DNA from: an uncultured beta proteobacterium | Lineage (GTDB): Bacteria; Pseudomonadota; Gammaproteobacteria; Burkholderiales; Burkholderiaceae_C | DNA: 64,000 nt | NCBI GenBank assembly: GCA_903823025.1 | Contig: CAIJRK010000062.1 | Location: 1,710-65,709, forward strand | Direction of reading: 5' to 3' | Shown: positions 17,784 through 19,056 of the stretch, in pieces | Layout: each line of letters begins with the position of its first letter | Position numbering within the stretch: the stretch's first letter is position 1 | Translations under genes and position numbers: made by a program | The notes under the pieces: model-generated | What the model saw: the letters and a program-made list of their open reading frames with translations, nothing else | What the model was told of the DNA's origin: nothing | The model's database searches: none

Positions 17784-17799
17784 TGGCACGAATGCTGCG
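17784..17799 (+). promoter_or_regulatory. sigma54 promoter of ribA-ribH2(-sfnR)
   Basis: TGGCACGAATGCTGCG (GG-N10-GC), 57 bp before the ribA ATG. Confidence 0.8.
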
Positions 17800-17856
17800 T
17801 TATTTCGTAGAACCTTTGAGGTGAATTGATAGAAAACAGACGAGCCTGATCGACCC

Positions 17857-18507
17857 ATGAAAACAAACATCGCGATAGAGCCTAAACATAACTATCTCAC
17901 TGATTGCCCTGTGAGCGTTCGTCAGCGCGTCTTTATTCCTATCAAAAATGTTCAGAAAAAAGTTGAATTTGTCAGCTTTCATGGACTGCGGCAAGACAAT
18001 CAACCTATCGCCCTCATTTTTGGACCAATCAGTCAGAAGGCACCAATCCCTGTTCGTGTGCATTCTGAATGTCTGACCGGCGATGTATTTGGTTCATTGC
18101 GTTGTGACTGTGGAGCGCAATTGCAAGAAGTGATTGAAGAGATGAATGTCATGGGCGGCATTCTTCTCTACCTGCGCCAGGAAGGTCGTGGCATTGGCCT
18201 GTATGCCAAGCTCGATGCCTACCACCTTCAGGACGGCGGCCTTGATACGTTTCAGGCTAACCGGGCGCTAGGATTCTCGGACGACCTGCGCACCTATGAC
18301 GATGCCGCCCACATGCTGCGCGCTTTGGATATTACAAAAATTATCCTGATTTCCAACAACCCGGATAAAGCCGTTGGCCTGCAACAACTCGGCATTCAGG
18401 TGGTGTCTGTCAAAAACACAGGCGTTCATGTGAATGCCCATAACTACGACTATCTGGCTGCCAAAAAAGATCAGCATCACCACGCGCTCCAACTGGCGCG
18501 TGCCTAA
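17857..18507 (+). CDS. ribA: GTP cyclohydrolase II
   Basis: [21 protein letters not shown] (three Zn-binding Cys), [19 protein letters not shown]. Confidence 0.92.
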   Translation: [216 protein letters not shown]

Positions 18508-18537
18508 ATTATCACGATAAATTTTATTTAAACCATC

Positions 18538-19056
18538 ATGTCAACATCACGTATTAATTTCTCTAACGGCACAAACCGCATCGCTTTTATCCAAGCCTCA
18601 TGGCATAAAAATATCGTTGATCAAGCCCAAAAAGGGTTTCGTGAACAGATTCAGAAACTGGGTTATTCACTGGCGGATGTTGATTTTTTTGAAGTACCAG
18701 GTGCTTTTGAAATCCCGCTTCATGCCAAGCTTCTTGCTCAGAGCGGGCAATACAAAGCGATTGTTGCGGCGGGCCTGGTGGTCGATGGTGGCATTTACCG
18801 GCACGACTTTGTCGCCCAAAGCGTGCTGACTGGCTTGATGCAAGTTCAGCTTGAGACTGCAGTTCCCGTTTTTTCTGTGGTGCTCACGCCACATCATTTC
18901 CACGCCAGTGAGGAGCACACACAATTTTTCCTCAACCACTTCGTCTTGAAAGGGCAGGAAGCGGCTGACGCTGTGGCGCAAACGCTCACCAGTTTAAAAA
19001 ATAGTGTGGGTGGGCGCGTGCAGGAGCCCAAAGGAAAGCTCTACGCCGCGCTTTGA
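18538..19056 (+). CDS. ribH: 6,7-dimethyl-8-ribityllumazine synthase, type II (RibH2)
   Basis: IQASWH, VPGAFEIP, VDGGIYRHDFVA, VPVFSVVLTPHHFH...FFLNHFVLKGQEAA matches the Brucella-type RibH2 subfamily pattern. Confidence 0.9.
   Translation: MSTSRINFSNGTNRIAFIQASWHKNIVDQAQKGFREQIQKLGYSLADVDFFEVPGAFEIPLHAKLLAQSGQYKAIVAAGLVVDGGIYRHDFVAQSVLTGLMQVQLETAVPVFSVVLTPHHFHASEEHTQFFLNHFVLKGQEAADAVAQTLTSLKNSVGGRVQEPKGKLYAAL

What the first reader, a model, noticed from the sequence alone, without database searches (positions are those of the whole stretch)
17784..19056. ribA plus type II lumazine synthase apparently placed under sulfur-starvation sigma54 control
Seen: an intact GTP cyclohydrolase II and a RibH2-type synthase directly follow a sigma54 promoter that shares the enhancer pair with the MsuC-like gene. 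No ribB/ribD/ribE and no recognisable FMN riboswitch lie here. Established: RibA is the committed step of riboflavin synthesis, and all local monooxygenases consume FMNH2. Inference: a dedicated flavin-boost module co-induced with desulfurisation; RibH2 might alternatively act as a flavin/lumazine-binding scaffold.
Basis: partly seen in the sequence, partly recalled or inferred. Interest (0 to 1): 0.6.

Follow-up and report, generated by a model that had tools for sequence, protein, structure and literature searches.

The report
Flavin-synthesis genes wired into sulfur-starvation regulon
Two riboflavin-synthesis genes (ribA and a type II lumazine synthase) sit behind a sigma-54 promoter in one operon with the sulfur-scavenging regulator SfnR. 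Similar links recur in unrelated bacteria, so cells seem to raise flavin supply together with flavin-consuming desulfurising enzymes. Unexpectedly, this ribA is the genome's only intact GTP cyclohydrolase II.

Summary
An intact GTP cyclohydrolase II (17857-18507) and a type II lumazine synthase (18538-19056) follow a -24/-12 promoter (17784-17798). Two TGTTG-N6-CARCA sites lie 87 and 118 bp upstream and are shared with the divergent msuC promoter. sfnR follows with no predicted terminator or sigma-70 promoter, so ribA-ribH2-sfnR reads as one self-activating operon.

The flavin-boost reading is supported by comparison, not by expression data.
- The trio recurs in one congener and one metagenome contig as sfnR-ribA-ribH2. 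In the metagenome lineage ribA and ribH2 are fused into one 396-aa protein.
- A distant family carries a true ribBA inside msuE-sfnG-msuC-ribBA-ssuD-sfnR operons.
- In an even sample of 351 class genomes, 3 of the 4 with sfnG have a GTP cyclohydrolase II gene inside the cluster.

The "housekeeping RibBA" elsewhere is a RibBX without zinc ligands, so this ribA is the genome's only canonical GTP cyclohydrolase II. Yet 142 of 144 congeners lack both it and sfnR, so it is an accessory gene, not the ancestral housekeeping one.

I found no paper describing this. The scan holds one unchecked note of ribBA behind ssuE in another genome.

The parts
17684..17699 (.). Upstream activator site 1, the perfect palindrome TGTTGAAATTTCAACA. 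Its centre lies about 118 bp upstream of the inferred ribA start site and about 51 bp upstream of the msuC start site.
17715..17730 (.). Upstream activator site 2, TGTTGAATAGGCAGCA. It lies 31 bp (three helical turns) from site 1, with its centre about 87 bp upstream of the inferred ribA start site.
17784..17798 (+). Sigma-54 (-24/-12) promoter TGGCACGAATGCTGC of ribA-ribH2-sfnR. The inferred transcription start is near 17810.
   Evidence: rpoN is present in the genome. A near-identical TGGCACGAACGCTGC heads the ribBA-containing operons of another family.
17652..17666 (-). Divergent sigma-54 promoter TGGCATACCCTTTGC of msuC.
17857..18507 (+). ribA2: monofunctional GTP cyclohydrolase II, 216 aa, with zinc ligands C72/C83/C85 plus Y122 and R145. 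It is the only canonical GTP cyclohydrolase II in the genome.
18538..19056 (+). ribH2: type II (Brucella RibH2-like) 6,7-dimethyl-8-ribityllumazine synthase, 172 aa, with no Cys and only 2 Met.
19157..20290 (+). sfnR-like sigma-54 activator, 377 aa: an AAA+ sigma-54 interaction domain from residue 25 plus an HTH_8 domain, with no N-terminal sensor domain. It is the last gene of the operon.
   Evidence: No terminator or sigma-70 promoter is predicted between ribA and sfnR.
16371..17582 (-). msuC/dszC-like reduced-flavin monooxygenase of the acyl-CoA dehydrogenase fold. The likely start is the ATG at 17582, preceded by AGGAG.
   Evidence: The start codon was read from the sequence.
16226..16240 (-). 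Sigma-54 promoter of msuE-sfnG and the ABC transporter genes, with two one-mismatch sites at 16323 and 16345.
15586..16197 (-). msuE, NADH:FMN reductase (TIGR03566, 251 bits).
14437..15549 (-). sfnG, dimethylsulfone monooxygenase (TIGR04021, 637 bits).

Best explanation
ribA2-ribH2-sfnR is a sigma-54-dependent operon inside an accessory sulfur-scavenging island.

Proposed mechanism. SfnR is an enhancer-binding protein without a sensor domain. It binds the two TGTTG-N6-CARCA sites and activates both divergent promoters. This switches on msuC and, in a positive loop, its own operon. The operon adds two slow flavin-pathway enzymes: GTP cyclohydrolase II, the committing step, and lumazine synthase, the penultimate step. 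The extra riboflavin and FMN feed the FMN reductase MsuE and at least nine two-component monooxygenases encoded within 25 kb. These enzymes use FMN as a diffusible co-substrate, not as a bound cofactor.

Shown here: gene identities, catalytic residues, promoter and site motifs, operon continuity, and recurrent linkage in other lineages.

Inferred: SfnR binding to these sites, induction by sulfur limitation, and an effect on flavin pools.
For: 1. Both enzymes look intact and are placed behind the promoter and site pair. No internal terminator or sigma-70 promoter is predicted.
2. The genome has rpoN. The site-plus-promoter combination is unique in the genome.
3. The window at 2-34 kb holds 4 luciferase-like and 5 SfnB/MsuC/DszC-like monooxygenases, MsuE, TauD and sulfonate/methionine importers.
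4. ribA2 and sfnR are each found in the same 2 of 144 genomes of the genus.
5. G010 has sfnR-ribA-ribH2-ssuD/msuD on one strand. Metagenome contig L155 has sfnR followed by a single RibA-RibH2 fusion ORF. The same fusion appears in three protein clusters from separate assemblies.
6. There is an independent case. Family f238 has msuE-OsmC-sfnG-msuC-ribBA-(ssuA)-ssuD-(ssuC)-sfnR in 6 of 8 loci of that ribBA paralog, across four genera. The ribBA there is truly bifunctional and, at least in G720, is supernumerary.
7. In an even sample of 351 class genomes, sfnG occurs in 4. Three of those have a GTP cyclohydrolase II gene in the cluster.
8. RibH2 has the low-sulfur composition of the other island proteins: 1.2% Cys+Met against 3.4% for a genome proxy and 3.8% for RibH1.
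9. Precedent for the logic: B. subtilis RibR, encoded in a sulfur-regulated operon, overrides FMN riboswitches (PMC7693651, citing Pedrolli 2015).
Against: No expression, binding or flavin-pool data exist for this organism. The SfnR site motif is inferred only from repetition in this window.

In G010 and L155 no strict -24/-12 match precedes sfnR-ribA-ribH2, so control there may be of another kind, for example CysB.

The module lacks ribB, ribD and ribE, so a boost depends on spare capacity in those steps.

This ribA is the only canonical GTP cyclohydrolase II in the genome, which fits 'essential enzyme' as well as 'boost'.

Neither ribA2 nor ribH2 has a clear Shine-Dalgarno sequence.

160 other RibH2 loci, in Pseudomonas, Paraburkholderia, Herbaspirillum and Rhodococcus, show no sulfur context.
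Confidence: 0.55

Rival explanations
1. Bypass of an unrecognised first step. The genus makes the first riboflavin intermediate by an unknown, non-canonical route. The canonical zinc enzyme RibA2 (with RibH2) was acquired as a sulfur-starvation-specific bypass, because the native route is limiting or itself needs sulfur.
For: All 20 congeners with a PF00925 match have only a RibBX-type hit, apart from G010, and 9 of 16 other families of the order show the same. Every RibBX inspected lacks the three Cys and the Tyr. No PRK07198 or GCH III gene is present. A creatininase-family gene, the family of the riboflavin formamidase BrbF (PMC9478397), is present in 22 of 24 congeners.
Against: The alternative route is purely inferred from absence. 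The creatininase gene lies beside molybdate genes and fits no curated subfamily. It is also missing from seven RibBX-only genomes of other families. Nothing shows that the unknown route depends on sulfur.
Confidence: 0.15
2. Plain housekeeping gene. ribA2 is simply the cell's constitutive GTP cyclohydrolase II and ribH2 a spare lumazine synthase. Their position beside sfnR is incidental, and a weak undetected sigma-70 promoter drives them.
For: It is the only canonical GTP cyclohydrolase II in a genome scored 100% complete. In G858 the sole ribBA also lies beside sfnG, so adjacency does not require an extra copy.
Against: It is absent from 142 of 144 genomes of the genus, which keep ribD, ribE, ribBX and ribH. 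It co-occurs exactly with sfnR. Linkage to sfnR is kept through a gene-order change and a fusion. A -24/-12 promoter lies 59 bp before the start codon and no sigma-70 match is found. Its GC3 of 0.51, against 0.57-0.65 for its neighbours, points to recent arrival.
Confidence: 0.12
3. Non-biosynthetic role of RibH2. The type II lumazine synthase acts mainly as a flavin- or lumazine-binding oligomeric scaffold or buffer for the free reduced flavin that the reductases produce, with RibA tethered to it.
For: RibH2 is a stand-alone gene of unknown role in many Pseudomonas, lying between a threonine-aldolase-like gene and astE. The natural RibA-RibH2 fusion would place the cyclohydrolase on the oligomer.
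Against: The protein aligns almost without gaps to Brucella RibH2 and keeps the conserved WH, YRHDF and TPHHFH segments (alignment A1). In f238 and G858 the linked gene is ribBA with no lumazine synthase, so the common denominator is precursor synthesis.
Confidence: 0.08
4. Sulfur-sparing isozyme swap. Under sulfur starvation a sulfur-poor RibH2 replaces the sulfur-richer RibH1 to save Cys and Met.
For: RibH2 has 0 Cys and 2 Met against 2 Cys and 4-5 Met in RibH1. The sulfur-linked RibH2 variants sit at the family minimum: 10 of 120 relatives have a Cys+Met count of 2.
Against: RibA2 is not sulfur-poor (3.7%) and has no sulfur-rich counterpart to replace. The saving from a low-abundance enzyme would be negligible. 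Low sulfur content is better read as a mark of expression during starvation.
Confidence: 0.05

Closest known systems
B. subtilis RibR in the sulfur-regulated ytmI (snaA-tcyJKLMN-cmo-ribR) operon (Pedrolli et al. 2015, as summarised in PMC7693651)
   Same: Flavin supply is raised together with a sulfur-scavenging regulon rich in FMN-dependent monooxygenases. The coupling gene is encoded inside the sulfur operon.
   Different: RibR is a flavokinase fused to an RNA-binding domain, and it acts by overriding FMN riboswitches of the normal rib operon. Here there is no FMN riboswitch anywhere in the genome. Instead, dedicated biosynthetic enzymes are placed directly under the regulon's sigma-54 promoter.
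SfnR / sigma-54 control of sfnFG, sfnA and msu genes in Pseudomonas putida DS1 and P. aeruginosa (Endoh 2003, 2005; Habe 2007; Lundgren 2019; cited in PMC8234197)
   Same: The activator has no sensor domain, sfnR is the last gene of its operon, the targets have -24/-12 promoters, and the partners are sfnG, msuC and msuE.
   Different: In P. putida the genes ahead of sfnR are sfnE and sfnC. No rib gene is reported in the pseudomonad sfn/msu operons (Fig. 1 text of PMC8234197). Here ribA-ribH2 occupy that position.
Brucella/Rhizobiales RibH2 (type II decameric lumazine synthase; PDB 1T13, 1DI0, 2OBX; PMC2828483)
   Same: Same subfamily: NF009084 at 248 bits and a strong, nearly gap-free alignment. 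It is a second lumazine synthase beside a type I RibH.
   Different: Brucella ribH2 is a lone gene studied for virulence (PMC2828483). This one is paired, and in one lineage fused, with ribA and tied to sfnR.
RibBX (Brutinel et al. 2013; A. salmonicida, PMC10012899; A. baumannii structure 6MNZ)
   Same: The C14 'RibBA' of this genome is of this type. Its best solved relative is 6MNZ (E 3e-115), and the cyclohydrolase-like half lacks the zinc and ring-opening residues.
   Different: In the described RibBX organisms (S. oneidensis, A. salmonicida, A. baumannii) a separate constitutive ribA supplies the activity. In this genus no such ribA is found, and in this genome the only one is the sfnR-linked copy.

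Membership tests
GTP cyclohydrolase II (RibA, PF00925 / NF001591) | Profile score above the curated cut-off over the whole domain | tested here: met
   PF00925 176.9 bits (cut-off 23.3); NF001591 250.4 bits (cut-off 148)
GTP cyclohydrolase II (RibA, PF00925 / NF001591) | Three zinc-binding Cys (E. coli C54, C65, C67), catalytic Tyr105 and Arg128 | tested here: met
   C72, C83, C85, Y122 and R145 align with 2BZ0 and with eight canonical RibA proteins
GTP cyclohydrolase II (RibA, PF00925 / NF001591) | Converts GTP to 2,5-diamino-6-ribosylamino-4(3H)-pyrimidinone 5'-phosphate | not testable with these tools
   Needs an enzyme assay or complementation of an E. coli ribA mutant
Type II lumazine synthase (RibH2, NF009084 / PRK12419) | Scores above the type II model's cut-off and below the type I models' cut-offs | tested here: met
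   NF009084 248.4 bits (cut-off 160); TIGR00114 83.3 bits (cut-off 84.6); NF000814 54 bits (cut-off 174)
Type II lumazine synthase (RibH2, NF009084 / PRK12419) | Close, essentially gap-free similarity to the solved Brucella and Mesorhizobium RibH2 proteins | tested here: met
   1T13 E 8.8e-53 over residues 13-151; 2OBX E 1.6e-46; type I enzymes only E 1e-15 or weaker
Type II lumazine synthase (RibH2, NF009084 / PRK12419) | Decameric assembly and lumazine synthase activity | not tested
   No structure prediction or assay was done
SfnR-type sigma-54 activator | AAA+ sigma-54 interaction domain plus a Fis-type HTH, with no N-terminal sensory or receiver domain | tested here: met
   PF00158 at residues 25-188, PF25601 and PF02954 at residues 323-360, in a 377-aa protein
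SfnR-type sigma-54 activator | Encoded with sfnG and msu genes that carry -24/-12 promoters | tested here: met
SfnR-type sigma-54 activator | Orthology to P. putida or P. aeruginosa SfnR; CysB-dependent expression; binding to the proposed sites | not tested
   No reference SfnR sequence or curated model was available. NCBIfam gave only generic enhancer-binding-protein matches below their cut-offs.
Sigma-54 promoter | GG-N10-GC with a TGGCAC-N5-TTGC-like sequence, correctly oriented in an intergenic region, and rpoN present | tested here: met
   TGGCACGAATGCTGC lies 59 bp before the ATG; rpoN is on C31
Sigma-54 promoter | Mapped transcription start and rpoN dependence | not testable with these tools
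   Needs 5' RACE or RNA-seq and an rpoN mutant
RibR-type coupling (B. subtilis) | Acts through FMN riboswitches | tested here: not met
   No RF00050 match in the genome or at the locus. It works towards the same end but is not a member.

The most novel reading that the evidence does not exclude
This ribA is the only canonical GTP cyclohydrolase II in its genome. Nearly the whole genus, and more than half of the sampled families of the order, carry only the catalytically stripped RibBX. If so, a large group of bacteria would start riboflavin synthesis by an unrecognised enzyme, and the SfnR-controlled RibA-RibH2 pair would be a sulfur-starvation bypass of that unknown step.
Probability: 0.2. 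Interest if true: 0.8.

Novelty: new variant of a known kind. Interest (0 to 1): 0.55.

Why it matters
Two-component desulfurising monooxygenases consume free reduced FMN, and how cells meet that demand is known only for B. subtilis, through RibR. This locus and its independent analogues suggest a second, simpler solution in Proteobacteria: the committing riboflavin enzymes are placed inside the regulon itself.

The finding gives direct, testable predictions: sfnR- and rpoN-dependent induction, and flavin pools that rise on dimethylsulfone. It also reveals a natural RibA-lumazine synthase fusion, which I found described in no paper I searched.

Separately, it exposes a gap. Automated annotation calls RibBX 'bifunctional', which hides the fact that many genomes of this order have no recognisable GTP cyclohydrolase II.

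Tried and rejected
The contigs of the closest RibA2 and RibH2 relatives (P0002/P0133 and others) therefore could not be read. Matching contig lengths only suggest that these pairs share contigs.
- RibH2 as an anchor for the sulfur link was rejected. 80 genome loci and 79 of 80 metagenome loci with RibH2 at 58-74% identity have no ribA, sfnR or msu neighbour. In Pseudomonas the gene sits between a beta-eliminating lyase and astE.
- Monofunctional RibA homologues at 46-55% identity elsewhere in the order have no sulfur context.
- BrbF (creatininase family) as the general substitute for the missing cyclohydrolase does not fit. It is conserved in the genus but absent from seven other RibBX-only genomes.
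- The flavophos paper was checked as a possible precedent for rib paralogues in specialised clusters and found not relevant.
- The Lundgren 2019 paper on SfnR2, which might give a binding consensus, is not held.
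Full report
WHAT IS THERE

The finding's coordinates hold exactly what was described. ORF 17857-18507(+) is a 216-aa monofunctional GTP cyclohydrolase II (PF00925 177 bits; NF001591 250 bits). Aligned to E. coli RibA (2BZ0) and to eight canonical RibA proteins from related genomes, it keeps the three zinc cysteines (C72, C83, C85), the catalytic Tyr (Y122) and Arg (R145), and the QEGRGIGL segment.

Thirty bases downstream, ORF 18538-19056(+) is a 172-aa type II lumazine synthase. 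It scores 248 bits on NF009084 (cut-off 160), while the type I models stay below their cut-offs. It aligns over residues 13-151 to Brucella RibH2 (1T13) at E 9e-53.

One hundred bases further on, 19157-20290(+) encodes a 377-aa enhancer-binding protein. It has only the sigma-54 interaction AAA+ module and a Fis-type HTH, with no sensor domain.

Divergently lie three genes on the other strand:
- an msuC/dszC-like monooxygenase (16371-17582)
- msuE (TIGR03566, 251 bits)
- sfnG (TIGR04021, 637 bits)

REGULATORY ANATOMY

TGGCACGAATGCTGC at 17784-17798(+) is a -24/-12 promoter 59 bp before the ribA ATG. TGGCATACCCTTTGC at 17652-17666(-) serves msuC. Between them lie TGTTGAAATTTCAACA (17684) and TGTTGAATAGGCAGCA (17715), 31 bp apart centre to centre. 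Their centres fall about 87 and 118 bp upstream of the inferred ribA start site, which is the usual range for enhancer-binding proteins. They fall about 51 and 82 bp upstream of the msuC start site.

The same half-site family recurs upstream of the two other -24/-12 promoters of the island, at 8648, 16323 and 16345. This confirms the scan's companion note e1-5272582.

Genome-wide there are 85 strict promoter-like matches and 32 site-like matches. The only place where a site lies within 250 bp upstream of a promoter match is this intergenic region. rpoN is present.

No sigma-70-like promoter and no terminator is predicted between the promoter and the end of sfnR. Rfam finds nothing at the locus and no FMN riboswitch in the genome. 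The simplest reading is one transcript, ribA-ribH2-sfnR, which its own last product activates.

CONTEXT

Between 2 and 34 kb the window encodes:
- four luciferase-like monooxygenases
- five SfnB/MsuC/DszC-like flavin monooxygenases
- MsuE
- TauD with a taurine-type importer
- a MetNIQ importer and a Liv-type importer

The island proteins are sulfur-poor. Cys+Met is 0.5% in SfnG, 1.5% in MsuC and MsuE, and 1.3% in SfnR, against 3.4% for long ORFs of the genome. RibH2 shares this (1.2%, no Cys), unlike RibH1 (3.8%). Among 120 RibH2 relatives, those of this genome, of G010 and of two close metagenomic relatives sit at the family minimum.

THE UNEXPECTED POINT: THE REST OF THE PATHWAY

Contig C14 carries ribD, then ribE-'ribBA'-ribH-nusB. 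NCBIfam would name the 371-aa protein bifunctional (PRK14019, 597 bits). However, its ribA-domain score is only 47 bits against a cut-off of 206. Its best solved relative is the A. baumannii protein 6MNZ, deposited as a DHBP synthase. Where M. tuberculosis RibBA reads [20 protein letters not shown], this protein reads RVHEPLSVLDALEVGRVMHS.

It is therefore a RibBX, a class shown to lack cyclohydrolase activity (PMC10012899, citing Brutinel 2013). Several searches find only ribA2 and this RibBX:
- PF00925
- the PRK07198 model
- the archaeal GCH III family
- tblastn with ten canonical queries

So ribA2 is the only canonical GTP cyclohydrolase II in a genome scored 100% complete.

Even so, it is not the ancestral housekeeping gene. 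In 144 species genomes of the genus, only this one and G010 carry it, and the same two are the only ones with this sfnR. The sampled congeners have just the RibBX hit, always without the Cys and Tyr. How the genus makes the first intermediate is open. A creatininase-family gene, the family of the riboflavin formamidase BrbF (PMC9478397), is conserved in 22 of 24 congeners. It is absent from other RibBX-only genomes of the order and has no telling context.

IS THE SULFUR LINK MORE THAN AN ACCIDENT OF ONE GENOME?

From the RibH2 side the link is rare. 80 genome loci and 79 of 80 metagenome loci have no ribA, sfnR or msu neighbour. In Pseudomonas the gene stands alone between a beta-eliminating lyase and astE.

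The closest relatives do share the link:
- G010 has two msuC-like genes divergent from sfnR-ribA-ribH2-ssuD/msuD.
- Metagenome contig L155 has the same order, but ribA and ribH2 form a single 396-aa open frame.
- That fusion is present in three protein clusters from different assemblies (P0122-P0124, 87-96% identical, each with both Pfam domains). It is therefore not a sequencing slip.

The RibA2 clade is tiny: 13 clusters at 64% identity or more among 5.8 billion proteins. Several share their longest-contig length with close RibH2 hits.

In this genome ribA2 and ribH2 have GC3 of about 0.51 against 0.57-0.65 for their neighbours, whereas in G010 and L155 they match their neighbours. The pair therefore seems to have entered this sfnR unit separately, upstream of sfnR and not downstream of it.

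INDEPENDENT RECRUITMENTS

Searching sfnR across the class found G720, in another order (family f238). Its cluster is msuE, an acyl-CoA-dehydrogenase-like gene, OsmC, sfnG, msuC, ribBA, ssuA, ssuD, ssuC, sfnR. That ribBA is truly bifunctional (TIGR00505 245 bits, TIGR00506 241 bits). It is supernumerary, because G720 also has a separate ribA and a RibBX-like gene.

The arrangement is kept in G943, G942, G958, G953 and G965. That makes 6 of 8 loci of this paralog, across four genera. In G943 and G942 the operon head carries TGGCACGAACGCTGC, one base different from the promoter here.

In an even sample of 351 class genomes, sfnG (TIGR04021) occurs in four, namely this genome, G720, G826 and G858. 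Three of them have a cyclohydrolase II gene within the cluster. In G858 the genome's sole ribBA is followed by sfnG and an FMN reductase. With one to three such genes per 2-4 Mb genome, chance adjacency within a few kb is of the order of 1% per genome. The scan also holds an unchecked first-reader note (e1-2897650) of ribBA 37 nt behind ssuE in yet another genome.

INTERPRETATION

The common denominator of the three architectures is the committing enzyme of riboflavin synthesis placed inside an sfnG/msu unit. The architectures are ribA+ribH2, a RibA-RibH2 fusion, and ribBA.

These systems use FMN as a diffusible co-substrate shuttled from MsuE to SfnG, MsuC and MsuD (PMC8234197). A regulon that suddenly adds ten such enzymes therefore plausibly needs a larger free flavin pool. 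[quoted passage not shown] I did not test this.

I put 0.55 on this co-induced flavin-supply model. The rivals are:
- a bypass of an unknown or sulfur-sensitive first step (0.15)
- a plain housekeeping role (0.12)
- a scaffold or flavin-buffer role for RibH2 (0.08)
- a sulfur-sparing isozyme swap (0.05)

NOVELTY

Full-text searches found nothing that links rib genes to sfn, msu or ssu operons. The terms combined sfnR, sfnG, msuD/E, ssuD and sulfate starvation with riboflavin, ribA, ribBA and lumazine synthase.

The nearest precedent is B. subtilis RibR, which reaches the same end through FMN riboswitches (PMC7693651). That mechanism cannot apply here, because the genome has no riboswitch. I rate the finding a new variant of a known kind of coupling, of moderate interest. 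A more novel side issue is the missing cyclohydrolase in the genus.

LIMITS

There are no expression or binding data. The SfnR site is inferred. The class-level sample of sfnG loci is small (n = 4).

Noticed in passing
G000 contig C14:5325-6440 (L002:1492-2607, minus strand) and relatives L009-L034, L246-L248: The 'bifunctional RibBA' next to ribH is a RibBX: its cyclohydrolase-like half lacks all three zinc Cys and the Tyr but keeps a strongly conserved RVHEPLS...HSWSL motif. All 20 sampled congeners with a PF00925 match have only this hit (apart from G010), as do 9 of 16 other families of the order. The source of the first riboflavin intermediate is therefore unknown.
   Followed up: partly
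L155:7305-8495 (+); proteins P0121-P0124: A natural in-frame fusion of GTP cyclohydrolase II and type II lumazine synthase (396 aa, linker of about 30 residues), directly downstream of sfnR. It is seen in three 90%-identity clusters from separate metagenome assemblies. I found no description of such a fusion.
   Followed up: partly
L261:9558-19600 (G720) and L263, L264, L265, L267, L268: A conserved operon, msuE, an ACAD-like gene, OsmC, sfnG, msuC, ribBA, (ssuA), ssuD, (ssuC), sfnR, occurs in four genera of another family. The ribBA is a true bifunctional extra copy. G943 also has a second, 99%-identical copy outside a sulfur context (L262).
   Followed up: partly
L270:8386-11733 (G858, a 1.7-Mb genome): The genome's only ribBA lies directly upstream of sfnG and an MsuE-like FMN reductase, after hemA-prfA and a 1-kb gap. 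No other rib gene lies within 10 kb and there is no Rfam match.
   Followed up: partly
L066, L085, L089, L171 and about 57 further Pseudomonas loci: In Pseudomonas the type II lumazine synthase is a lone gene between a beta-eliminating lyase (threonine-aldolase-like) gene and astE/astB, near alaS. Its role there is unexplained.
   Followed up: partly
window 14437-20290: The island proteins are strongly depleted in Cys+Met (SfnG 0.5%, SfnR 1.3%, MsuC and MsuE 1.5%, RibH2 1.2%) against about 3.4% for long ORFs of the genome.
   Followed up: yes
window 19126-19154: A nine-base-pair hairpin (core CTCACTTAT / ATAACGAAGTGAG) ends 5-6 nt before the sfnR ATG and covers its weak ribosome-binding region. 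The 19057-19160 spacer folds at -23.4 kcal/mol. It could limit sfnR translation relative to ribA-ribH2.
   Followed up: no
window 17800-17856 and 18508-18537: Neither ribA2 nor ribH2 has a recognisable Shine-Dalgarno sequence, whereas msuC has AGGAG 7 nt before the ATG at 17582. The msuC ORF is better started there than at the TTG at 17597.
   Followed up: no
G000 contig C6:4778-5500 (L250:1474-2382, minus strand): A creatininase-family gene is conserved in 22 of 24 congeners. It lies beside Mop and ModE molybdate genes and fits neither the creatininase nor the MftE curated model. It is a possible BrbF-like formamidase, but this is unproven.
   Followed up: partly
window 9092-9511 (+): A HepT-like ribonuclease (toxin-type) gene sits inside the sulfur island, between two transporter and monooxygenase blocks.
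   Followed up: no
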